A DNA stretch of 32,000 nt, taken from positions 3,540,001 to 3,572,000 of the forward strand of contig CP091279.1 in assembly GCA_021650915.1 (NCBI GenBank). Direction: 5' to 3'. Below the pieces are notes generated by a model. The model was given only the letters and a program-made list of their open reading frames with translations, was not told the origin of the DNA and made no database searches. The stretch comes from Candidatus Brocadia sp. (lineage in GTDB: Bacteria > Planctomycetota > Brocadiia > Brocadiales > Brocadiaceae). Positions 22,409 through 32,000 of the stretch are shown here, one piece after another. Both the position numbers and the translations under genes were made by a program. The stretch's first letter is position 1. Every line of letters begins with the position of its first letter.

Positions 22409-22587
22409 GCATAGCGCAGCAAGGCCGCAACCAATTCTCCGTTGTGAAAGCGGGGAGATTGCTTCGGAAAAGGCCCTCGCAATGACAGCGACCATGCACT
22501 TTGATGGCACACGGCATGTTGTCATTGCGAGTGAAGCGAAGCAATCCTTCTCTTATAAATAAACAGTACCTTCTGACAAGGGATAAA
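22409..22587 (-). repeat. Long-hairpin repeat, copy A, proximal part (interrupted by IS copy 1)
   Basis: The reverse complement aligns with 27071-27250 and 31725-31900, including the core gattgcttcgcttcactcgcaatgaca...tgtcattgcgagggccttttccgaagcaatc. Confidence 0.8.
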
Positions 22588-24440
22588 TAGTGTTTGAACG
22601 GAAACCCCCCAGAGCCCTGTAAAGTAAGGAGAAGCTGGTGAAAAATGTTCATGAAAGTCATTGAATTTTTTCGGGTAAAAGGGTAAAATATGGCGAAAAT
22701 GAAGGGATTCTGGGTATAAAGAGTCCAAATATTCGGTTCATTAACCCACTAGCCAAAGGACATTCGATAGAAGATGAGAAAGAGATTTGAGCAGCAATTG
22801 AAGCTTGGCATCATACCCATTTCAGGGGTAAAACTGCCAATAAAGAGTCGAGATGAGCTACCACCGATACTGAGGGCGTTGCAACATATCTATGTTACAC
22901 CGGAGTTGAACGAGGAGGTATTCCGGATATTAGAGGCGAAGGTAACGAAGGGGAAGAAAAAGACGGGAAGATATGGGATGGATTTATGGCATATTTTGGT
23001 GTTGTCGGTGGTAAGATTAGGGTTAGATGCCGATTATGACAGGTTGGAGGATTTTGCCAACCATCACAAACTTATCAGGCAGATAATGGGGGTTGAGACG
23101 GCATTTGGAGAGGCGAAGGTTTTTTCGATGCAGAGCATCAAGGACAATATAAGATTGTTGGATGAGGAGACCCTCAGGCAGATAAATGAAGTGGTGATAT
23201 CATCGGGGCATCAGTTGGTTAAAAAAAAGGACGAAGGACTGTGTATTAAGGTGGATACGTATGTGTTAGAGACGAATGTACACTTTCCGACCGATATGAA
23301 TTTATTGTGGGATGCGGGACGCAAGAGTCTGGACATGATAGAGGATGCAATAGAGGAAGGCATCCTGGCGGGGAAAGGATGGCGCAAGAGCAAATATTGG
23401 AGGAGAGAGTTAAAAAAGCTGATGAGGATAAGCGCAAAGGCGTCAAGCAGCGGGGGGAAAAACAAGGAAGAGCATGTGAGGAGTTACTTGGAATTATCGA
23501 GGGGTTTGAGTGAAAAGATAGGAGCGAGTCTGTTAGCCATCTACGAAAAGGTGCTAACGACGAACCAGGTAGACAAGCATGCAGGGAAAATAGGGACACT
23601 GGAGTATTTTCACGGGATGTTGAATAAACAGATAGACCTGGTGGAGAGAAGGGTGATCCGGGATGAGGTAATACCGGCGGCAGAAAAGGTTCATTCGTTG
23701 TTTGAGCCGCATACGGAGTGGCTGTACAAAGGCAAGTCAAACAAAAGGGTAGAGTTGGGACATAATATTCTGGTAGCAAGCGATCAGTGGGGTTTCATCG
23801 TGGACCATGTGGTAGGAGAAAAACAGGCGGATGTATCGTTGGTAATTCCATTGGCAGATAGGTTGTTGAGCCGTTACGGAGAAGGCACAATAAAGAGTAT
23901 AAGTTTTGATAAAGGTTTTTACAAGAAAGAGAATAAAGAGTTGCTGAGTTTGTATATACCAGAGGTAATCCTTCCCAAGAAGGGCAAGAAGAATAAGGCG
24001 GAACAGGAAGAGGAATCGGGTAAGACATTTAAGAAGCTAAGGCACAAGCACTCGGCGGTAGAATCGGATATCAATCGTTTGGAGCATCACGGCTTGGATA
24101 GGTGTCCGGACAAAGGGCTGCATGCCTTTAAAAGATATTGTGCAATGGGCGTGTTAGCTGCGAATTTGCACAAGCTGGGAAACGTGCTGCAGGAGAAGGC
24201 ACGGAAGCAGTGCGAAAAGTTGCGAAAAGCCGCCTAAGCAAGCAAAAAACACGAAGAAAAACAGTCTGCCGGGAGGCAGGTACGCCCAGACAAGGCTAAA
24301 ATAAAGGGGAAAACAAGGGAAATATGTAAAAGAACAGTATTTTTGCCAAAAACCCTAATCTCAAATCTTAAAATTATCTATTGGTAAATAGAAAATCGAC
24401 CTCGCACTTTTACAAAAAGTGCGTTTTCGTTCAGACACTA
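22588..24440 (+). mobile_element. 1853-bp insertion sequence, copy 1 (IS5/IS1182-like DDE type; family unverified)
   Basis: Identity with the inverted copy starts at TAGTGT and ends at ACACTA. Imperfect 18-bp TIRs: TAGTGTTTGAACGGAAAC / TAGTGTCTGAACGAAAAC. It interrupts repeat copy A, which resumes at 24445. Confidence 0.85.
22774..24237 (+). CDS. DDE transposase (IS4/IS5-superfamily-like, InsH-like N-terminal region)
   Basis: 487 aa. N-terminal GRYGMDLWHILVLSVVRLGLDADYDRLEDFANHHKLIRQIMGV resembles the IS5/IS1182 N-domain. Candidate catalytic residues lie in KVDTYVLETNVHFPTD, ISFDKGFY and HSAVESDINRLEHHGL. Confidence 0.8.
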   Translation: MRKRFEQQLKLGIIPISGVKLPIKSRDELPPILRALQHIYVTPELNEEVFRILEAKVTKGKKKTGRYGMDLWHILVLSVVRLGLDADYDRLEDFANHHKLIRQIMGVETAFGEAKVFSMQSIKDNIRLLDEETLRQINEVVISSGHQLVKKKDEGLCIKVDTYVLETNVHFPTDMNLLWDAGRKSLDMIEDAIEEGILAGKGWRKSKYWRRELKKLMRISAKASSSGGKNKEEHVRSYLELSRGLSEKIGASLLAIYEKVLTTNQVDKHAGKIGTLEYFHGMLNKQIDLVERRVIRDEVIPAAEKVHSLFEPHTEWLYKGKSNKRVELGHNILVASDQWGFIVDHVVGEKQADVSLVIPLADRLLSRYGEGTIKSISFDKGFYKKENKELLSLYIPEVILPKKGKKNKAEQEEESGKTFKKLRHKHSAVESDINRLEHHGLDRCPDKGLHAFKRYCAMGVLAANLHKLGNVLQEKARKQCEKLRKAA

Positions 24441-24444
24441 AATA

Positions 24445-24510
24445 GGGTTGCGAGAAAACTTGCAAAAAAAGAAAGCTTTTATACGGTAATACTCGAGTGG
24501 GTGAGCGCAT
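24445..24510 (-). repeat. Long-hairpin repeat, copy A, distal part
   Basis: gggttgcgagaaaacttgcaaaaaaagaaagcttttatacggtaatactcgagtg aligns with the reverse complement of 27021-27080. Confidence 0.7.
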
Positions 24511-24684: not shown

Positions 24685-26537
24685 TAGTGTCTGAACGAAA
24701 ACGCACTTTTTGTAAAAGTGCGAGGTCGATTTTCTATTTACCAATAGATAATTTTAAGATTTGAGATTAGGGTTTTTGGCAAAAATACTGTTCTTTTACA
24801 TATTTCCCTTGTTTTCCCCTTTATTTTAGCCTTGTCTGGGCGTACCTGCCTCCCGGCAGACTGTTTTTCTTCGTGTTTTTTGCTTGCTTAGGCGGCTTTT
24901 CGCAACTTTTCGCACTGCTTCCGTGCCTTCTCCTGCAGCACGTTTCCCAGCTTGTGCAAATTCGCAGCTAACACGCCCATTGCACAATATCTTTTAAAGG
25001 CATGCAGCCCTTTGTCCGGACACCTATCCAAGCCGTGATGCTCCAAACGATTGATATCCGATTCTACCGCCGAGTGCTTGTGCCTTAGCTTCTTAAATGT
25101 CTTACCCGATTCCTCTTCCTGTTCCGCCTTATTCTTCTTGCCCTTCTTGGGAAGGATTACCTCTGGTATATACAAACTCAGCAACTCTTTATTCTCTTTC
25201 TTGTAAAAACCTTTATCAAAACTTATACTCTTTATTGTGCCTTCTCCGTAACGGCTCAACAACCTATCTGCCAATGGAATTACCAACGATACATCCGCCT
25301 GTTTTTCTCCTACCACATGGTCCACGATGAAACCCCACTGATCGCTTGCTACCAGAATATTATGTCCCAACTCTACCCTTTTGTTTGACTTGCCTTTGTA
25401 CAGCCACTCCGTATGCGGCTCAAACAACGAATGAACCTTTTCTGCCGCCGGTATTACCTCATCCCGGATCACCCTTCTCTCCACCAGGTCTATCTGTTTA
25501 TTCAACATCCCGTGAAAATACTCCAGTGTCCCTATTTTCCCTGCATGCTTGTCTACCTGGTTCGTCGTTAGCACCTTTTCGTAGATGGCTAACAGACTCG
25601 CTCCTATCTTTTCACTCAAACCCCTCGATAATTCCAAGTAACTCCTCACATGCTCTTCCTTGTTTTTCCCCCCGCTGCTTGACGCCTTTGCGCTTATCCT
25701 CATCAGCTTTTTTAACTCTCTCCTCCAATATTTGCTCTTGCGCCATCCTTTCCCCGCCAGGATGCCTTCCTCTATTGCATCCTCTATCATGTCCAGACTC
25801 TTGCGTCCCGCATCCCACAATAAATTCATATCGGTCGGAAAGTGTACATTCGTCTCTAACACATACGTATCCACCTTAATACACAGTCCTTCGTCCTTTT
25901 TTTTAACCAACTGATGCCCCGATGATATCACCACTTCATTTATCTGCCTGAGGGTCTCCTCATCCAACAATCTTATATTGTCCTTGATGCTCTGCATCGA
26001 AAAAACCTTCGCCTCTCCAAATGCCGTCTCAACCCCCATTATCTGCCTGATAAGTTTGTGATGGTTGGCAAAATCCTCCAACCTGTCATAATCGGCATCT
26101 AACCCTAATCTTACCACCGACAACACCAAAATATGCCATAAATCCATCCCATATCTTCCCGTCTTTTTCTTCCCCTTCGTTACCTTCGCCTCTAATATCC
26201 GGAATACCTCCTCGTTCAACTCCGGTGTAACATAGATATGTTGCAACGCCCTCAGTATCGGTGGTAGCTCATCTCGACTCTTTATTGGCAGTTTTACCCC
26301 TGAAATGGGTATGATGCCAAGCTTCAATTGCTGCTCAAATCTCTTTCTCATCTTCTATCGAATGTCCTTTGGCTAGTGGGTTAATGAACCGAATATTTGG
26401 ACTCTTTATACCCAGAATCCCTTCATTTTCGCCATATTTTACCCTTTTACCCGAAAAAATTCAATGACTTTCATGAACATTTTTCACCAGCTTCTCCTTA
26501 CTTTACAGGGCTCTGGGGGGTTTCCGTTCAAACACTA
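24685..26537 (-). mobile_element. 1853-bp insertion sequence, copy 2 (inverted, identical to copy 1)
   Basis: The reverse complement matched copy 1 at every stretch I compared: both untranslated ends base by base, and the coding region through identical sense and antisense ORF translations. Confidence 0.85.
24888..26351 (-). CDS. DDE transposase, identical second copy
   Basis: The 487-aa translation is identical to 22774..24237. Confidence 0.8.
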   Translation of the reverse strand: MRKRFEQQLKLGIIPISGVKLPIKSRDELPPILRALQHIYVTPELNEEVFRILEAKVTKGKKKTGRYGMDLWHILVLSVVRLGLDADYDRLEDFANHHKLIRQIMGVETAFGEAKVFSMQSIKDNIRLLDEETLRQINEVVISSGHQLVKKKDEGLCIKVDTYVLETNVHFPTDMNLLWDAGRKSLDMIEDAIEEGILAGKGWRKSKYWRRELKKLMRISAKASSSGGKNKEEHVRSYLELSRGLSEKIGASLLAIYEKVLTTNQVDKHAGKIGTLEYFHGMLNKQIDLVERRVIRDEVIPAAEKVHSLFEPHTEWLYKGKSNKRVELGHNILVASDQWGFIVDHVVGEKQADVSLVIPLADRLLSRYGEGTIKSISFDKGFYKKENKELLSLYIPEVILPKKGKKNKAEQEEESGKTFKKLRHKHSAVESDINRLEHHGLDRCPDKGLHAFKRYCAMGVLAANLHKLGNVLQEKARKQCEKLRKAA

Positions 26538-26606
26538 AATATTGAAACAATAATAAGCAGGACAATCAACGAAAAAAGTATTTAGTTATCTGCTGTTATT
26601 ATTTGC

Positions 26607-26636
26607 TTGACACCGATTGTTAGAGCAATATATAGT
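26607..26636 (+). promoter_or_regulatory. Sigma70-like promoter
   Basis: TTGACA (26607-26612), a 16-nt spacer, then TATATA (26629-26634); alternatively an 18-nt spacer to TATAGT. It lies in an AT-rich region just outside the IS copy 2 end. Confidence 0.45.
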
Positions 26637-26686
26637 GCACATAATTCACGCTCTTCACGAAGACATTGTCAACAACACCACGATAG

Positions 26687-26837
26687 AGCGACAAAGGCAA
26701 ACCCTGAGCGATCAGGGGGCGCAAAGTGATAGGGTCTTTCTGTGTACAAGGAAGTAAGGCTGAATAAAACAGGGACACATTGATGCGTTTCTGTTGCTGA
26801 GAAAGGGATGGGAATGAGAAGAGACAGCCTTGCTGCC
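26687..26837 (+). promoter_or_regulatory. Candidate c-di-GMP-I (GEMM-I)-like riboswitch aptamer
   Basis: 26693-26726 reads AAAGGCAAACC-CUGA-GCGA-UCAG-GGGGCGCAAAG. It parallels the V. cholerae Vc2 5' half as I recall it (CAGGGCAAACC-AUUC-GAAA-GAGU-GGGACGCAAAG), with a compensated hairpin and a retained GNRA loop. The candidate 3' strand AGCCUUGCUGCC (26826-26837) resembles AGCCGGGUUGCC. The P3 region appears expanded and I could not fold it with confidence. Confidence 0.45.
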
Positions 26838-26875
26838 GAAGGTATTGAAGGGGAGATTGGTGGTAAGGCTTTTTT
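26826..26875 (+). terminator. Intrinsic terminator, candidate riboswitch expression platform
   Basis: 12-bp stem AGCCUUGCUGCC (26826-26837) pairs with GGUGGUAAGGCU (26859-26870) through 9 Watson-Crick and 3 G-U pairs. The loop is 21 nt, followed by U5-6. Confidence 0.55.
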
Positions 26876-26914
26876 CGTTTGAACAAAAATGGTAACGATG
26901 TAGTTTTTAGAAAA

Positions 26915-27277
26915 ATCCCGAAGGGATGACATGATTATAGAAAAAACCCACCATCCTATTCAACCCCGCAGGGGTGAAATAGCGATACTACGCCACTCCT
27001 ACAGGGTTAACCATAATTGCATGACACTATAGTATTACCCAGTAAAAACTTCTTTTTTTGTAAGTTTTTTCACAAACCCCTTTCAAGAGGTACCGTTTTT
27101 TATGAGTGAAAGATTGCTTCGCTTCACTCGCAATGACAACGTGCCGTGTACCATCAAAGTGCATGGTCGCTGTCATTGCGAGGGGCCTTTTCCGAAGCAA
27201 TCTCCCGTTTTCATAAAGGAAATTTGGTTGTGGCTGTGCTGCTGCGCTAGGCTATAATCATGACATCTCTTCGGGAT
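26915..27277 (+). mobile_element. 363-bp MITE-like composite element, copy B (order TIR-X-Y-TIR)
   Basis: 26-bp inverted termini atcccgaagggatgacatgattatag (26915-26940) and ctataatcatgacatctcttcgggat (27252-27277) match at 24/26. It contains module X (26941-27018) and long-hairpin module Y (27019-27250). No ORF of credible coding character. Confidence 0.7.
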
Positions 27278-27491
27278 TACAGAATCAATATTTTGTTCAC
27301 TCGTAGTGATTGTGAGCGAAAGCACGCTGATGATGGGTTAAGCCTGTCCTGTGTCTGCGAAGGGAGCGAAGATTCGCTGCGTACAAATACCGTGAAAGAC
27401 GGATTTTGTGTACAACCAAGCAGTTTTTTTCGAAAGTTCAGTCATGATTGTAAAAGTCTTCTGGTAAAAACGAGAAAAGGAGGGAAGGGGT

Positions 27492-30400
27492 ATGCAATAC
27501 AGAGATATATTGGGCGTTCTGGCGATGATGCTGGTAATCGGGGCGCTGGATACCGTGCGTGCAGGAGAAACAGACAAGGGGGCCATTCTTGCTAACAAAT
27601 TTGATGAAAAATGTTTTGATACGATTCGGGATTCGATGCCGCCTCAGGACAAACCGGACGAGTCGGCAAGGTTGAAGGCAGCGGAATCCTATGGCAAGCT
27701 GCCATTGTCATTCATCCGGAATGACGGCCAGGTGGATGACCGGGTAAGATATTACGAAAAGGGGGCTGGTCACGCCACGTATTTTACCAAAAGGGGGGTG
27801 TGTCTGTCGCTGGTTGGCGGTGGGACAAGCGCCCCGCCTGTCAGTGAGCAAGTGGACAGCAGTCAGGCAAATGCAGCAGGCCGATTGGACCAAGACGTTT
27901 CCGTTCAGTCTGCAAGCCTGAACCAGCAGGGCAGAGATGAGGATACGATCAGGGGGGCGAAAGGCAAAAAATCCGAAATCCGCAATCCGCAATCCGAAAT
28001 CGTACATCTCATGCCACTGGGCATGGAGAAGGACGTGGAGATTGTTGCCGGAGATGAACAGCCGGGAACGGTGAATTACTTTATTGGCAACGACCCAAAA
28101 AAGTGGAAGACGAACGTCCCTGCGTACGAATCTGTAGTCTATAAAGGGGTGTACGATGGCATAGATATGAAATTCTACGGCAACAACCGTCAGATGGAGT
28201 ATGATATCATCGTACAGCCCGGGGCAAGCCCGTCACGGGTGCAGCTTTCTTATGAGGGGATAGAGGGATTAACGGTGGCGGAAAACGGCGACCTTGAGAT
28301 AAAACTGAAGGAAGGCAAGATCATCCAGAAAAAGCCGTACGTGTATCAGGAGATAGACGGAAAGAGGATTGAGATAAACGGGAAGTTTCGAGTACAAACC
28401 CAAAATCCGAAATCCGAAATCCAACATCCGAAATTCATTTACGGTTTCACGGTCGCCTCCTACGACAAACGCTACCCCCTTGTCATCGACCCCGTGCTCG
28501 TCTATTCCACCTACCTGGGGGGGAGCGCTGATGAGGATAGCGAAGGCATAGCAGTAGACGCTGCGGGAAATGTCTATGTAACTGGCGAAACAGATTCTTT
28601 CAACTTTCCCACGGCCTCACCCTATGATGGAAGTTTTAACGGCGATGGAGATGCCTTTGTAACCAAGTTGAATGCATCGGGCAGCGGCCTCGTCTATTCC
28701 ACCTACCTGGGGGGGAGTGGTGAGGATTTGAGCGCGGGCATTGCAGTGGATGCTGCAGGAAATGCCTATGTGACTGGGGACACAAAGTCTTTCGACTTTC
28801 CCATGTCCTCACCCTATGATGGAAGTCCTAACGGTTATGGAGATGCCTTTGTAACCAAGCTGGATGCATCGGGCAGCAGCCTCGTCTATTCCACCTACCT
28901 GGGGGGAAGTGGTGAGGATGGGGGCGATGGCATAGCAGTGGACGCTGCGGGAAGTGCCTATGTGACTGGTGGCACATCGTCTTTCGACTTTCCCACGTCC
29001 TCACCCTATGATGGAAGTTTTAACGGCGATGGAGATGCCTTTGTAACCAAGTTGAATGCATCGGGCAGCGGCCTCGTTTATTCCACCTACCTGGGGGGAA
29101 GTGGTGATGAGTATGGCGATAGCATTGCAGTGGACGCTACGGGAAATGCCTATGTGACTGGGGACACAGAATCTCTCAACTTTCCCACGGCCTCACCCTA
29201 TGATGGAAGTTTTAACGGCGATGGAGATGTCTTTGTAACCAAGCTGAATGCATCGGGCAACGGTCTCGTCTATTCCACCTATCTGGGGGGAAGTGGTGAT
29301 GATGGGGTTGCGGGCATAGCAGTGGACGCTGCGGGAAATGCCTATGTGACTGGAGACACAGAATCTCTCAACTTTCCCATGGCAGCACCTTATGACGGAA
29401 GCCTTAGTGGTTATGCGGATGCCTTTGTAACCAAGCTGAATGCATCGGGCAGCGGCCTCGTCTACTCCACTTATCTGGGGGGGAGTGATGGTGAGGGTGG
29501 CGATGGCATAGCAGTGGACGCTGAGGGAAGTATCTATGTGACTGGTGCCACAGGGTCTTTCGACTTTCCCACGGCCTCACCCTATGATGGAAGTTTTAAC
29601 GGCGATGCAGATGTCTTTGTAACCAAGCTGAATGCATCGGGCAGCAGCCTCGTCTATTCCACCTACCTGGGAGGAAGTGGCGATGAGAGTGCCTATAGCT
29701 TAGCGCTGGACGCTGCAGGAAACGTCTATGTGTGCGGAGAGACAGATTCTTTCGACTTTTCCACAGCCTCACCCTATGATGGAAGCTATAATGGTGAATT
29801 CGATGCCTTTGTGTGCAAATTCGGATCTACGATACCCACACCCACACCAACGCCGACACCGACACCGGAGCCGACACCGAGTCCAACTCCGTCTCCGACA
29901 CCGATAAAGGCTTGTTATGCCTTCGAAGAAGGCAGTGGCACGATTGCCGGTGATTCGTCAGGCAATGGCAATGATGGGACGGTCAGTGGCGCGACATGGA
30001 CAACCGGAAAAGACGGGGGTGGTTTAAGTTTTAATGGTGTGAATAATTATGTGTCAATCCCTCTCTTCAACAATAGCGAGGTGACTGTTAGCGCATGGTT
30101 CCATAAAAACGCCCATGATACGACGCGGAATGACGCTATATTCAGCGGGTTCAGAAGTGGCGCGAATCGGCAAAATCGTGAAGGGTTTGAATTGCGGTTT
30201 CCCGCAAGCGCCCCAGATACCCTTGAATTTATGCTTGTTACCCAGGATGGGGGTGGCGCCAGGACGAATCGGATTATCCGGCGAACCCTTCTGAATTCCG
30301 TTGGCAATTGGTATCATGCCGTTGGCACCTATAATCAGACTACAGGCCAACAGAAGTTGTATGTAAACGGGGAATTGGTTCGTACGTTCACGCATCCGGC

Positions 30401-31217
30401 AGGAAACACGGTCGTGCCTTTATCGTTTTATCCCGACATGCGAATAGGACATTCGAGGATTAATCACGGTTATTTCAATGGTGTCATCGATGACGTCCGC
30501 CTTTACAATTATGCCCTGAACGACCAGGAAATCAAAAGCTTGTACAACGCCTTTACTGATGACCTGCAGGCCCGGTATGCCCTTGATGAAGGGGCGGGGA
30601 CGATTGCCGGTGATTCGTCAGGCAACGGCAATCATGGTGAAGTCAGCGGAGGAGCGGCATGGACAACGGGGCAGACCGGGAATGGACTGGGTTTTGACGG
30701 TGTGGATGACTCTGTGACGATTCCCCGAATCAACAACGATGAGGTCTCCGTCTGTGCGTGGTTCTATAAAAATGCCAATGATACGGCACAGAATGACGCC
30801 ATCTTTGGCGGATTCAGGAACAGTTCAGACGTGCAGCGCAGGGAAGGATTTGCGCTGAGATTTCCCCCAGGCAATCCTGACACCCTCCAGTTTCTTCTCG
30901 TAACGCAGGATGGAAGCGGCACAAGGATCATGAGAACAGCCCAAAGGAATTTAATCAATTCAGTTGGAAGCTGGCACCATGTCACGGGCACCTATAATAA
31001 GACAACGGGTGAGCAGAAGTTGTATGTAGATGGCGCACTGGTGAATACCCAAATGCATTCTGCAGGGAATACGATCGTGCCATTGAATACGTATGATGTT
31101 ATGGGAATAGGGCATTTGCGGGTAAATGGAGGGCATTTTAACGGCGTCCTTGACGATATTCGTCTTTACCGGAGGGCATTGACTGATCAGGAGGCGCTGG
31201 ACATTTACAATAACTGA
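27492..31217 (+). CDS. Large secreted protein: N-terminal domain, 7 SBBP beta-propeller repeats, Pro/Thr linker and two LamG (concanavalin-like lectin) domains
   Basis: SD aaggaggg and a signal peptide (MQYRDILGVLAMMLVIGALDTVRAGE). YGKLPLSFIRNDGQVDDRV is typical of SBBP-protein N-termini. Seven 64-aa repeats read LVYSTYLGGSG.D...GIAVDAAGNAYVTG.T.S.DFP..SPYDGSFNG..DAFVTKLNASGS. These are followed by PTPTPTPTPTPEPTPSPTPSPTP and two roughly 210-aa repeats with GDSSGNGN.G...W.TG..G.GL.F.GV...V.IP and VRLYN.AL. Confidence 0.9.
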   Translation: MQYRDILGVLAMMLVIGALDTVRAGETDKGAILANKFDEKCFDTIRDSMPPQDKPDESARLKAAESYGKLPLSFIRNDGQVDDRVRYYEKGAGHATYFTKRGVCLSLVGGGTSAPPVSEQVDSSQANAAGRLDQDVSVQSASLNQQGRDEDTIRGAKGKKSEIRNPQSEIVHLMPLGMEKDVEIVAGDEQPGTVNYFIGNDPKKWKTNVPAYESVVYKGVYDGIDMKFYGNNRQMEYDIIVQPGASPSRVQLSYEGIEGLTVAENGDLEIKLKEGKIIQKKPYVYQEIDGKRIEINGKFRVQTQNPKSEIQHPKFIYGFTVASYDKRYPLVIDPVLVYSTYLGGSADEDSEGIAVDAAGNVYVTGETDSFNFPTASPYDGSFNGDGDAFVTKLNASGSGLVYSTYLGGSGEDLSAGIAVDAAGNAYVTGDTKSFDFPMSSPYDGSPNGYGDAFVTKLDASGSSLVYSTYLGGSGEDGGDGIAVDAAGSAYVTGGTSSFDFPTSSPYDGSFNGDGDAFVTKLNASGSGLVYSTYLGGSGDEYGDSIAVDATGNAYVTGDTESLNFPTASPYDGSFNGDGDVFVTKLNASGNGLVYSTYLGGSGDDGVAGIAVDAAGNAYVTGDTESLNFPMAAPYDGSLSGYADAFVTKLNASGSGLVYSTYLGGSDGEGGDGIAVDAEGSIYVTGATGSFDFPTASPYDGSFNGDADVFVTKLNASGSSLVYSTYLGGSGDESAYSLALDAAGNVYVCGETDSFDFSTASPYDGSYNGEFDAFVCKFGSTIPTPTPTPTPTPEPTPSPTPSPTPIKACYAFEEGSGTIAGDSSGNGNDGTVSGATWTTGKDGGGLSFNGVNNYVSIPLFNNSEVTVSAWFHKNAHDTTRNDAIFSGFRSGANRQNREGFELRFPASAPDTLEFMLVTQDGGGARTNRIIRRTLLNSVGNWYHAVGTYNQTTGQQKLYVNGELVRTFTHPAGNTVVPLSFYPDMRIGHSRINHGYFNGVIDDVRLYNYALNDQEIKSLYNAFTDDLQARYALDEGAGTIAGDSSGNGNHGEVSGGAAWTTGQTGNGLGFDGVDDSVTIPRINNDEVSVCAWFYKNANDTAQNDAIFGGFRNSSDVQRREGFALRFPPGNPDTLQFLLVTQDGSGTRIMRTAQRNLINSVGSWHHVTGTYNKTTGEQKLYVDGALVNTQMHSAGNTIVPLNTYDVMGIGHLRVNGGHFNGVLDDIRLYRRALTDQEALDIYNN
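27970..28002 (+). repeat. Imperfect heptanucleotide microsatellite (AATCCGA/AATCCGC, 4.7 units) inside the CDS
   Basis: aatccga aatccgc aatccgc aatccga aatcg, encoding KSEIRNPQSEIV. Confidence 0.8.
28404..28436 (+). repeat. Second imperfect heptanucleotide tract of the same unit inside the CDS
   Basis: aatccga aatccga aatccaa catccga aattc, encoding NPKSEIQHPKF. Confidence 0.75.
28497..29828 (+). repeat. 7 x 192-bp in-frame tandem repeats (the SBBP blades)
   Basis: The repeat-initial ctcgt(c/t)ta(t/c)tcc recurs at 28497, 28689, 28881, 29073, 29265, 29457 and 29649, an exact 192-bp period. Some repeat pairs share runs of about 60 identical nt. Confidence 0.9.
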
Positions 31218-31259: not shown

Positions 31260-31644
31260 GTCGAATTTGCAAGAGAAATGGCGGATGCGCTCCGCCTTAT
31301 CCAGCTTACTGTTGAAAGTTCCGGAGGCAACAGAAACGAAAGGTGGATACGGCGATACAAGACAATCGCCTTAATCCACCCTACCCATGCTGCCCATGCA
31401 TGGTGATATCCGTATTACCGTGGGACAGGGCATGGGGGAGAGCGTTACCGTTCCTTTTGATTTGTGATTCACCCTTTGTGTAGTTCCTAATAAAAAGCAT
31501 TGTAACACTTTAGCTTTTTGAAAAATTCTCTCTATGAACAATATTGTCTTGATAGGGGCAGGTTTCAAACCTGCCCCTACACGGTATGGTAAATATAGCC
31601 TTTATTGGGATTTTTCAAAAAACTAACGTGTTACCGATACTGTA

Positions 31645-32000
31645 ATCCCGAAGGAATGACATGATTATAGCATAGTGTTATAGTATTACTGTATAAAAAC
31701 TTCTTTTTTTGTAAGTTTTTTCATAAGCCCCTTTCAGGAAGTACCGTTTTTTATGAGTGAAAGATTGCTTCGCTTCACTCGCAATGACAACGTGCAGTGT
31801 GCCATCAAAGTGCATGGTCACTGTCATTGCGAGGGCCTTTTCCGAAGCAATCTCCCCACTTTCATAAGGGAAATTTGGTTGCAGCTGTGCTGCGCTATGC
31901 AATTATGGTTAACCCCGCGGGGGGTGGCACAGTATCGCTATTTTCCCGGTATTTCACCCCTTACGGGGTTAAATATGGCGGTGCGTTTTTTCTATAATCA
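31645..32000 (+). mobile_element. MITE-like composite element, copy C (order TIR-Y-X(inverted)-TIR, cut by the window end)
   Basis: It carries the same terminus atcccgaaggaatgacatgattatag (31645-31670), module Y (31671-31900), module X in reverse orientation (31901-31991) and the start of the second terminus, tataatca, at 31993-32000. Confidence 0.65.

What the first reader, a model, noticed from the sequence alone, without database searches (positions are those of the whole stretch)
26607..26880. Candidate c-di-GMP (GEMM-I-like) riboswitch with terminator upstream of the giant SBBP/LamG surface protein
Seen in sequence: a near-consensus promoter (TTGACA-N16-TATATA) is followed about 55 nt later by AAAGGCAAACC[CUGA-GCGA-UCAG]GGGGCGCAAAG. 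As I remember the Vc2 c-di-GMP-I aptamer (CAGGGCAAACC[AUUC-GAAA-GAGU]GGGACGCAAAG), every conserved position in this half matches except one A to G. The hairpin arms differ but stay complementary, and the loop is still GNRA. Downstream, GGGUCUUU (26732-26739) can pair with AGAGAC (26820-26825). That is followed by AGCCUUGCUGCC, which resembles the conserved AGCCGGGUUGCC 3' strand. UUGCU within it can pair with AGCGA (26687-26691) as P1. The same 12 nt also form the 5' arm of a 12-bp terminator hairpin followed by U5-6, the mutually exclusive arrangement expected of an ON-type riboswitch. The next gene is a 1241-aa secreted propeller/lectin protein, the adhesin-like class that c-di-GMP riboswitches often control. 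Caveats: P3 would be unusually large (about 85 nt extra). An alternative P1 partner, GUUGCU, exists at 26793-26798. I also cannot reproduce the full consensus from memory.
Basis: partly seen in the sequence, partly recalled or inferred. Interest (0 to 1): 0.7.

Follow-up and report, generated by a model that had tools for sequence, protein, structure and literature searches.

The report
c-di-GMP riboswitch before anammox surface-protein gene
This is a genuine but ordinary class I c-di-GMP riboswitch with a built-in terminator that most likely turns on a giant secreted surface protein of an anammox bacterium (Candidatus Brocadia) when c-di-GMP is high; it is one of at least ten very similar switches per anammox genome.

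Summary
Rfam's c-di-GMP-I model (RF01051) matches window 26686-26840 (+) over its full length at 46.1 bits, above the gathering score of 35. It is the only family above threshold in the 32 kb. The three ligand-contact positions are canonical: G20 = 26696, A47 = 26723, C92 = 26836. That argues for c-di-GMP rather than cGAMP or the 'GGC' variant.

A 14-bp hairpin followed by U6 (26826-26875) uses the 3' strands of P3 and P1 as its 5' arm. Ligand binding should therefore prevent termination, making this an ON switch.

The same aptamer plus terminator sits upstream of the orthologous SBBP/LamG genes in a Brocadia MAG, Jettenia ecosi and J. caeni. The surrounding leader is not conserved.

A genome scan found more than 120 near-uniform copies, mostly in anammox genomes. 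Of these, 110 gave a core alignment that was 90.5% paired, with covariation in P2.

P1 is 26689-90/26837-38 plus 26681-85/26843-47, not AGCGA/UUGCU. The 84-nt P3 insert is long but within this lineage's range of 6-94 nt.

The 615-nt gap to the gene is mostly nested MITE-like repeats. The switch is a new member of a known kind, of modest interest.

The parts
26607..26636 (+). Sigma-70-type promoter. TTGACA is at 26607-12, and the -10 is TATAGT at 26631-36 (N18) or TATATA at 26629-34 (N16). The inferred transcription start is near 26643.
   Evidence: scores it 11 of 12 matches. Jettenia has TTGAAA-N17-TATAAT/TATAGT at the equivalent place in alignment A2. The transcription start site is inferred, not measured.
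26681..26690 (+). P1 5' strand. The distal part CGAUA (26681-85) pairs with UAUUG (26843-47). The proximal part CG (26689-90) pairs with CG (26837-38). A 3x4 internal loop lies between them.
   Evidence: The RF03167 alignment models the proximal pairs. Across 110 copies the proximal pairs are G-C in 108/110 and a standard pair (mostly C-G) in 103/110, and the distal pairs are 52-74% paired. The window's distal pairing was read directly from the sequence.
26686..26840 (+). c-di-GMP-I (GEMM-I) aptamer as matched by Rfam RF01051.
   Evidence: 46.1 bits (GA 35), E = 3.9e-6, model positions 1-87 of 87.
26696..26696 (+). G20 equivalent. It recognises one guanine of c-di-GMP; an A here marks cGAMP-selective GEMM-Ib.
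   Evidence: Alignment. The role of G20 is described in PMC5888326. The A20 rule comes from my own memory of Kellenberger 2015 and Nelson 2015.
26697..26722 (+). P2 hairpin. It consists of the 2-bp G97-C98/G721-C722 helix, the AAA internal loop, the 6-bp stem 26702-07/26712-17, and the GCGA (GYRA-type) tetraloop at 26708-11.
   Evidence: In 110 copies the four free pairs are 98% canonical and all four covary.
26723..26723 (+). A47 equivalent, the first A after CGC. The Rfam 'GGC' variant consensus has G at this position.
   Evidence: Comparison of the consensus lines. PMC5888326.
26725..26736 (+). P3 5' strand: AGUG, then a bulged AU, then AGGGUC.
   Evidence: CM alignment. P3 is 97.2% paired across 110 copies.
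26737..26822 (+). Variable distal part of P3 (84-nt insert relative to the model, which has 17 nt here). It contains no 11-nt tetraloop receptor.
   Evidence: One search shows *[84]*. The sequence is not conserved in Jettenia, where the inserts are 73 and 60 nt. Family range is 6-94 nt, median 42.5. It has no other copy in the held DNA.
26823..26838 (+). P3 3' strand (GAC, then AG, then CCUUGCU, 26823-34), followed by G26835, C92 equivalent at 26836, and the proximal P1 3' strand at 26837-38.
26826..26875 (+). Intrinsic terminator. The 14-bp stem pairs 26826-39 with 26857-70 and includes several G-U pairs. The loop is 17 nt and the U6 tract is at 26870-75. Its 5' arm is the aptamer's P3 and P1 3' strands.
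   Evidence: MFE folds. The hairpin alone is -18.3 kcal/mol, against a family median of -23.5. It is conserved in Jettenia with a U7 tail. The simple scanner missed it because its loop limit is 8 nt.
26877..27491 (+). Long untranslated leader. It carries MITE-like element X, bounded by 27-nt inverted ends at 26914-40 and 27252-78. Nested inside X is a roughly 220-nt repeat at 27031-27251. The RBS AGGAGGG is at 27478-84.
   Evidence: The leader is not conserved between Brocadia and Jettenia. There are no Rfam hits of note.
27492..31217 (+). Regulated gene: a 1241-aa protein with a signal-peptide-like N-terminus, DUF7948, 6 SBBP beta-propeller repeats and 2 Laminin_G_3 domains.
   Evidence: It is 100% identical to a Candidatus Brocadia sp. 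hypothetical protein.

Best explanation
This is a transcriptional ON-type class I c-di-GMP riboswitch of Candidatus Brocadia.

- Transcription starts about 45 nt upstream of the aptamer, from the promoter at 26607-36.
- At high c-di-GMP, the ligand is bound at the three-helix junction (G26696, A26723, C26836). This locks P1, P2 and P3, so nucleotides 26823-26838 are held in the aptamer and the terminator hairpin (26826-39/26857-70 plus U6) cannot form. Polymerase then reads through the long leader into the 1241-aa secreted SBBP/LamG surface-protein gene.
- At low c-di-GMP, the more stable terminator forms and a leader of roughly 230 nt is released.

What is shown here: family membership by covariance model, canonical contact nucleotides, mutual exclusivity of aptamer and terminator, conservation with orthologues, and covariation among paralogues. 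What is inferred: ligand binding, the direction of regulation in vivo, and that read-through from this promoter is the main source of the gene's mRNA.
For: - Family membership: RF01051 scores 46.1 bits against GA 35 over the full-length model, and is the only hit above threshold in 32 kb. No c-di-GMP-II hit appears at E <= 10.
- Contact positions: G, A and C at the positions equivalent to G20, A47 and C92 (roles described in PMC5888326; PMC11218506).
- Orthologues: RF01051 hits above GA upstream of the orthologous genes, at 41.9 bits in a Brocadia MAG, 52.1 in Jettenia ecosi and 44.4 in J. caeni. Aptamer and terminator align while the flanks and the P3 insert do not.
- Terminator overlap: the terminator 5' arm overlaps the P3 and P1 3' strands. 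The full-length MFE is the terminator fold at -64.1 kcal/mol, against -48.4 for the aptamer-constrained fold.
- Paralogue family: 99 of 136 pattern matches (of the 114 with the 3' motif) have the same terminator, AGCCUUACUGCC...GCAGUAAGGCU followed by a U run.
- Covariation: 110 distinct copies are 90.5% paired, against 27-45% with slid partners, and 0 of 500 shuffles reach this. P2 is 98.6% paired with 4 covarying pairs.
- Downstream genes: DUF7948/SBBP proteins are the commonest family among 99 first downstream ORFs (8 members).
- Literature: Weinberg 2007 describes this exact architecture and its ON logic. GYRA loops lack a tetraloop receptor, and a terminator overlaps the 3' side of the second hairpin in 78 of 322 GEMMs. 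The motif is noted as common in some Planctomycetes (PMC1950547).
- Physiology: higher c-di-GMP correlates with more EPS in anammox granules (PMC11224092).
Against: - No binding or termination experiment exists for this RNA.
- The terminator is weaker than in most paralogues: 14 bp and -18.3 kcal/mol with a 17-nt loop, against a median of 20 bp and -23.5.
- 615 nt separate the terminator from the start codon, and this stretch holds nested MITE-like repeats with strong hairpins. An inverted 27-nt motif carrying a TATAAT faces the gene at 27252-78. It could be a closer promoter that bypasses the switch.
- Proximal P1 is only 2 bp.
- The aptamer fold is not the thermodynamic minimum, so control would have to be kinetic.
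- Many columns of the paralogue alignment were fixed by the search pattern and cannot inform on covariation.
Confidence: 0.85

Rival explanations
1. The aptamer is genuine but functionally uncoupled from the gene. The SBBP gene would be transcribed mainly from a closer promoter brought in or created by the repeat elements in the leader (for example the TATAAT-bearing 27-nt motif at 27252-78). The riboswitch promoter would then mostly produce a terminated RNA of about 230 nt, either a relic or a stand-alone c-di-GMP-binding RNA.
For: - The leader is 615 nt, and about 365 nt of it is repeat-derived.
- The 220-nt nested repeat is absent from the otherwise 99%-identical locus L001, so the leader is being remodelled.
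- The motif CTATAATCATGACATCTCTTCGGGATT points towards the gene.
- Most paralogues have short distances to the next ORF, often under 150 nt.
Against: - The aptamer and terminator are kept intact in Brocadia and in two Jettenia species, while everything around them has diverged.
- Jettenia orthologues also have leaders of roughly 700-900 nt, so a long leader is compatible with retention of the switch.
- The 27-nt motif usually occurs as inverted pairs 118-178 nt apart, like MITE ends rather than promoters.
- The promoter scan, which requires a -35 element, reported no + strand site there.
Confidence: 0.1
2. It senses a different ligand: 3'3'-cGAMP as in GEMM-Ib, or the unknown ligand of the c-di-GMP-I-GGC variant. 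In E-value mode, RF03167 is the best-scoring model of the clan.
For: RF03167 scores 51.6 bits against 46.1 for RF01051. Many anammox paralogues exceed RF03167's gathering score, at 59.5-67.3 bits.
Against: - 51.6 bits is below RF03167's gathering score of 59.
- The position that distinguishes the two consensus sequences (CGCGAAG against CGCAAAG) is A in the window, and A in 139 of 139 copies examined. Position 20 is G in 137 of 137.
- The higher RF03167 score probably reflects its modelled P1 and seeds from related sequences, not the binding site. This last point is inference.
Confidence: 0.04
3. It is a chance resemblance, or a protein-coding or antisense feature. ORFs of 87-88 aa lie on the minus strand across 26620-26932.
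For: The ORF list shows minus-strand ORFs at 26620-26886 and 26669-26932. A promoter-like site on the minus strand lies at 26963-26934.
Against: - The CM E-value is 3.9e-6, with independent hits above GA in orthologous positions.
- The P3 insert differs by 11 and 24 nt between genera, so no reading frame is preserved.
- Conservation follows base-pairing, not codons.
Confidence: 0.01

Closest known systems
c-di-GMP-I (GEMM-I) riboswitch, Rfam RF01051; the subtype with a GYRA tetraloop, no receptor, and a terminator overlapping the 3' side of the second hairpin (Weinberg 2007; Sudarsan 2008)
   Same: - It matches the full model above the gathering score.
- It has the conserved GGCAAAC...GNRA...GRCGCAAAG core and the AGCC...CUGCC 3' strand, with canonical G20, A47 and C92.
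- A terminator competes with the aptamer, giving ON logic.
- It lies 5' of a secreted or surface protein gene.
   Different: - The distal P3 is long (84 nt against about 17 in the model).
- Proximal P1 is only 2 bp, followed by an internal loop and a 5-bp distal helix.
- The 615-nt leader after the terminator is unusually long and riddled with repeats.
- The host is an anammox planctomycete.
Vc2 riboswitch of Vibrio cholerae (crystallised GEMM-I)
   Same: The junction nucleotides and the P2 architecture are the same. The 5' half matches at every conserved position.
   Different: Vc2 has a GAAA tetraloop docking into an 11-nt receptor in P3. The window RNA has a GCGA loop and no receptor sequence. 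The expression platform also differs.
Bc1 c-di-GMP-I riboswitch of Bacillus thuringiensis, with a long expression platform (PMC11218506)
   Same: It is a class I aptamer followed by intrinsic termination signals and a long stretch (220 nt in Bc1) before the start codon.
   Different: Bc1 is reported there to inhibit expression of the downstream genes through a dual terminator. Here a single terminator overlaps the aptamer directly, which predicts ON. The long stretch here is mobile-repeat DNA, not a conserved platform.
c-di-GMP-I-GGC variant (Rfam RF03167)
   Same: The overall fold and much of the sequence are shared. Many anammox paralogues score above this model's gathering threshold.
   Different: The window scores 51.6 bits, below GA 59. 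It has A rather than G at the position that distinguishes the two consensus sequences.

Membership tests
c-di-GMP-I riboswitch (RF01051) | Covariance-model score at or above the curated gathering score (35 bits), with a full-length match | tested here: met
   46.1 bits, model positions 1-87 of 87, E = 3.9e-6.
c-di-GMP-I riboswitch (RF01051) | First hairpin: a 2-bp plus 6-bp stem split by a conserved AAA internal loop, capped by a GNRA tetraloop. An 11-nt receptor in the second hairpin is expected only with GAAA-type loops. | tested here: met
   GC/AAA/CCCUGA-GCGA-UCAGGG/GGC/GC at 26697-26722. The GCGA loop is GYRA type, for which Weinberg 2007 reports that the receptor is almost never present. 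No receptor sequence was seen at 26736-26823.
c-di-GMP-I riboswitch (RF01051) | Ligand-contacting nucleotides G20, A47 and C92 (Vc2 numbering) | tested here: met
   G26696, A26723 and C26836 by alignment to the models. Their roles are described in PMC5888326 and PMC11218506.
c-di-GMP-I riboswitch (RF01051) | Second hairpin (P3) and P2 supported by base-pair conservation and covariation in relatives | tested here: met
   110 distinct copies, mostly from anammox genomes: P2 is 98.6% paired with 4 covarying pairs and P3 is 97.2% paired. Overall 90.5% against 27-45% for slid controls, and 0 of 500 shuffles reach this. Caveat: many columns were fixed by the search pattern.
c-di-GMP-I riboswitch (RF01051) | 5' regulatory position on the same strand as a downstream gene, conserved in orthologues | tested here: met
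   It lies upstream of the SBBP/LamG gene in the window, L001, L002 and L003/L006.
c-di-GMP-I riboswitch (RF01051) | Specific, high-affinity binding of c-di-GMP | not testable with these tools
   This needs in-line probing, ITC or a gel-shift assay.
ON-type transcriptional riboswitch (aptamer/terminator competition) | An intrinsic terminator (G+C-rich stem plus U tract) whose stem shares nucleotides with an aptamer helix | tested here: met
   The 14-bp stem 26826-39/26857-70 plus U6 shares 26826-38 with P3 and P1. It is conserved in Jettenia and detected after 99 of 136 pattern matches.
ON-type transcriptional riboswitch (aptamer/terminator competition) | Ligand-dependent read-through | not testable with these tools
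   This needs single-round in vitro transcription or Term-seq.
c-di-GMP-I-GGC variant (RF03167) | Score at or above the gathering score (59), and G at the A47-equivalent position (consensus CGCGAAG) | tested here: not met
   51.6 bits, below 59. The window has CGCAAAG.
GEMM-Ib 3'3'-cGAMP riboswitch | A instead of G at position 20 (from my own memory of Kellenberger 2015 and Nelson 2015) | tested here: not met
   G is at 26696. G is found in 137 of 137 related copies.
c-di-GMP-II riboswitch (RF01786) | Match to the class II model | tested here: not met
   No hit at E <= 10 in 26300-27700.

The most novel reading that the evidence does not exclude
The window copy is one member of a lineage-wide expansion that appears not to have been described. 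Anammox Planctomycetes (Brocadia, Jettenia, Scalindua, Loosdrechtia) carry at least 7-12 near-uniform c-di-GMP-I ON-switch/terminator modules per genome. Some are in tandem arrays of up to four. They sit in front of SBBP/DUF7948 surface proteins, cell-wall amidases, pilus genes, TPR proteins and sigma-54 activators. If so, riboswitches rather than protein effectors could be the main route by which c-di-GMP controls aggregation and granule formation in these organisms. A subsidiary reading is that, in this particular locus, the repeat-filled leader has uncoupled the switch, leaving a stand-alone c-di-GMP-binding RNA.
Probability: 0.35. Interest if true: 0.5.

Novelty: new member of a known kind. 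Interest (0 to 1): 0.3.

Why it matters
For riboswitch biology this is a textbook GEMM-I with a known architecture, detectable by any Rfam-based annotation pipeline, so it adds little.

Its value is local. It names a concrete c-di-GMP target, a giant secreted propeller/lectin protein, in a group of uncultured, industrially important bacteria. In those bacteria granulation correlates with c-di-GMP, but the effectors are not known.

It also gives a cheap, testable handle. Leader read-through at about ten loci per genome could serve as a readout of c-di-GMP state in reactor metatranscriptomes.

There is a practical caveat for annotators. Rfam's clan competition labels many canonical-site anammox copies as the 'GGC' variant.

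Tried and rejected
- **Unconstrained folding of 26645-26885.** It does not recover the aptamer (z = -0.54). That is not evidence against the aptamer, because the fold depends on ligand and tertiary contacts. The terminator was recovered.
- **The simple terminator scanner.** It missed the terminator because its loop limit is 8 nt.
- **Exact look-up of the window protein.** It found nothing. The representative P0001 did.
- **P0007 (B. sapporoensis).** It could not be located.
- **A functional extra domain in the 84-nt P3 insert.** Rejected. The insert is not conserved in Jettenia, has no other copy, and the length varies from 6 to 94 nt in the family.
- **A second conserved element in the long leader.** Rejected. 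There is no Brocadia-Jettenia conservation, and the only other Rfam matches are far below their gathering scores (miRNA and sRNA families, E 0.08-5.5).
- **A mobile promoter + riboswitch cassette.** Rejected. Conservation among 108 copies begins only about 14 nt before the core and stops at the U tract, and promoter-like hexamers are at no fixed distance.
- **True GGC or A20 variants in the fetched loci.** None were found.
- **The PNAS 2017 variant-riboswitch paper.** It could not be read. The meaning of 'GGC' therefore rests on the two Rfam consensus lines and my memory.
- **Literature linking riboswitches to anammox genera.** Searches found nothing relevant.

Full report
**1. Observation**

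- TTGACA lies at 26607-12, with TATATA 16 nt or TATAGT 18 nt downstream. The scan scores the latter at 11 of 12 matches.
- AAAGGCAAACC is at 26693-703, the hairpin CCCUGA-GCGA-UCAGGG at 26702-17, and GGCGCAAAG at 26718-26.
- GACAGCCUUGCUGCC is at 26823-37, GGUGGUAAGGCU at 26859-70, and U6 at 26870-75.

A cmscan of all 32 kb against Rfam 15 returns exactly one family above its gathering score. This is RF01051 (c-di-GMP-I) at 26686-26840 on the + strand, 46.1 bits against GA 35, E = 3.9e-6, model positions 1-87 of 87, with 84 nt inserted in the loop of the second hairpin. A permissive scan of 26300-27700 at E <= 10 shows no c-di-GMP-II match.

**2. Anatomy from the model alignments**
- G26696 is the unpaired G equivalent to Vc2 G20.
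- G26697-C26698 pair with G26721-C26722.
- P2 is 26702-07/26712-17, closed by a GCGA loop.
- A26723 is the A47 equivalent.
- P3 is A26725-G26728 plus A26731-C26736, paired with G26823-C26825 and C26828-U26834.
- C26836 is the C92 equivalent.
- The RF03167 model also includes P1. It pairs C26689-G26690 with C26837-G26838.

The family consensus (below) shows a distal P1 segment. In the window this is 26681-85 (CGAUA) with 26843-47 (UAUUG), across a 3x4 internal loop, read from the sequence.

The GCGA loop is GYRA type. Weinberg et al. 2007 report that such GEMMs almost never have the tetraloop receptor (PMC1950547). None is seen here.

**3. Which ligand**

In E-value mode the best model of the clan is RF03167 (c-di-GMP-I-GGC) at 51.6 bits, which is below its gathering score of 59. 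The two consensus lines differ at the first A after CGC: CGCGAAG in RF03167 and CGCAAAG in RF01051. The window has A.

G20 and C92 pair with the two guanines of c-di-GMP, and A47 contacts the ligand's ribose through its backbone phosphate (PMC5888326; PMC11218506). From memory, cGAMP-selective GEMM-Ib RNAs have A at position 20; the window has G. The binding site is therefore the canonical c-di-GMP one. Binding itself is untested.

**4. Expression platform**

The minimum-free-energy fold of 26645-26885 contains a 14-bp hairpin, 26826-39 with 26857-70 and a 17-nt loop, followed by U6. Its 5' arm is made of the 3' strands of P3, C92 and proximal P1. Aptamer and terminator are therefore mutually exclusive.

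Forcing the aptamer pairs gives -48.4 kcal/mol, against -64.1 for the terminator fold. Without ligand the terminator should win, and control must be kinetic.

This is the ON arrangement that Weinberg 2007 described for 78 of 322 GEMMs.

**5. Organism and orthologues**

The downstream 1241-aa protein has DUF7948, six SBBP repeats, two Laminin_G_3 domains and a signal-peptide-like N-terminus. It is 100% identical to a hypothetical protein of a Candidatus Brocadia sp. MAG. Its closest full-length relative is from Jettenia ecosi, at 53% identity.

RF01051 hits above GA lie upstream of the gene in all of these:
- the Brocadia MAG (L001): 41.9 bits
- J. ecosi (L002): 52.1 bits
- J. caeni (L003/L006): 44.4 bits

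In a four-way alignment the core, the P3 base, the terminator arms and the U tract align. The P3 insert (84, 73 and 60 nt) and the flanks do not. The rest of the leader shows no Brocadia-Jettenia conservation. Insert length differences of 11 and 24 nt exclude a conserved reading frame on either strand.

**6. A large paralogue family**

A scan of one genome per species was run with a pattern taken from the Brocadia/Jettenia core. Most are from anammox genomes: Brocadia, Jettenia, Scalindua and Loosdrechtia. Individual genomes hold 7-12 or more copies, some in tandem.

All the matches that were re-scanned hit RF01051 (38.7-59.3 bits) or RF03167 (59.5-67.3 bits). Yet all 139 copies examined have A at position 47, and all 137 examined at position 20 have G. 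Rfam's clan competition therefore labels canonical-site copies as the GGC variant.

Their 3' halves are almost uniform: GAYAGCCUUACUGCCGAAGAUGUU...AUCUUUGCAGUAAGGCU followed by U6.

I built a core alignment of 110 distinct copies with the distal P3 removed (A6). The named structure is 90.5% paired, against 27-45% for slid partners, and no shuffle of 500 reaches the observed values.
- P2 is 98.6% paired, with four covarying pairs.
- P3 is 97.2% paired.
- The proximal P1 pairs are nearly invariant and the distal ones are 52-74% paired.
- Columns fixed by the pattern carry no information. The free ones do.

Conservation among paralogues starts about 14 nt before the core and ends at the U tract. 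Promoters are at variable distance. This points to constraint on the riboswitch itself rather than a mobile cassette.

The distal P3 length ranges from 6 to 94 nt (median 42.5), and the window's 84 is among the 4 longest of 110. Terminator hairpins have a median of 20 pairs and -23.5 kcal/mol, while the window's has 14 pairs and -18.3.

Pfam families among 99 first downstream ORFs are led by DUF7948/SBBP (8), TPR (7), Amidase_2 (6) and sigma-54 activators (4). RCC1, PilM, pilin-type N_methyl/DUF1559 and beta-helix proteins follow. This is the usual 'environment, membrane, motility' regulon of GEMM.

**7. The long leader**

615 nt separate the U tract from the ATG at 27492; the RBS AGGAGGG is at 27478-84. 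Most of the leader is repeat DNA.
- A 27-nt motif, AATCCCGAAGGGATGACATGATTATAG, occurs at 26914 (+) and 27252 (-), and again at 31644.
- In other loci it forms inverted pairs 118-178 nt apart, like MITE ends.
- Nested inside is a repeat of about 220 nt (27031-27251). It is absent from the otherwise near-identical L001. Other copies are at 31694-31893 and 22453-22559.

The motif contains a TATAAT facing the gene. I could not exclude that it provides a second promoter, and that is the main rival reading.

**8. Comparison and verdict**

Every testable defining feature of c-di-GMP-I is met. The defining features of the GGC variant, GEMM-Ib and class II are not met.

The architecture (GYRA loop, no receptor, overlapping terminator, surface-protein target) was described in 2007, and GEMM was noted then as common in some Planctomycetes. 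The instance is therefore a new member of a known kind.

No paper in the held library links riboswitches to anammox genera. c-di-GMP is reported to correlate with EPS in anammox granules (PMC11224092). The lineage-wide expansion is thus a modestly interesting lead.

I put 0.85 on the ON-switch explanation and 0.3 on interest.

Noticed in passing
window 22583-24440 and 24685-26542: Two 100%-identical 1858-nt IS copies lie in inverted orientation, 244 nt apart. They carry 487-aa DDE_Tnp_1 transposase ORFs at 22774-24237 (+) and 24888-26351 (-). Both are absent from the near-identical Brocadia MAG locus L001. The right copy ends about 65 nt upstream of the riboswitch promoter.
   Followed up: partly
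window 27031-27251; also 31694-31893 and 22453-22559 (split by the left IS, continuing at 24440-24473): A hairpin-rich, MITE-like repeat of about 200-220 nt. The copy inside the riboswitch-to-gene leader is missing from L001, so the insertion (or its loss) is recent.
   Followed up: partly
window 26914-26940 (+), 27252-27278 (-), 31644-31670 (+); L001, L002, L003, L013, L026, L033, L050: A 27-nt motif, AATCCCGAAGGGATGACATGATTATAG, is conserved across Brocadia and Jettenia. It usually occurs as inverted pairs 118-178 nt apart, with compensatory changes in its small hairpin (AAUCCC/GGGAU against AAGCCC/GGGCU). It may be MITE ends or a TATAAT-plus-5'-hairpin promoter module; this is unresolved. 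Copies lie on both sides of the SBBP gene: in its leader and downstream of it in Brocadia (window, L001), and upstream of the riboswitch and downstream of the gene in J. ecosi (L002).
   Followed up: partly
loci L007-L126 (genome contigs): Anammox genomes hold many near-uniform c-di-GMP-I + terminator modules. In a truncated, pattern-limited scan, B. pituitae has at least 7, and Brocadia AMX1, MAG_8, WS118 and BIN37 have 10-12 each. Tandem arrays include L122 (4 copies within 2 kb), L090, L108, L023 and L085.
   Followed up: partly
L032, L122, L105, L085, L090, L043, L013, L108, L047: Rfam RF03167 (c-di-GMP-I-GGC) scores above its gathering threshold on anammox copies that carry the canonical A at the variant-defining position. 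Clan competition would therefore annotate canonical-site riboswitches as the GGC variant.
   Followed up: partly
L047 1191-2109 (-), Ca. Brocadia pituitae: Two group II intron D1-D4 hits (RF02003) and an Intron_gpII hit lie a few kb from a riboswitch copy.
   Followed up: no
window 26963-26934 (-): A promoter-like site, TTGAAT-N18-TATAAT, lies on the minus strand and points back through the terminator and aptamer. It overlaps the 27-nt motif. It is a consensus match only.
   Followed up: no
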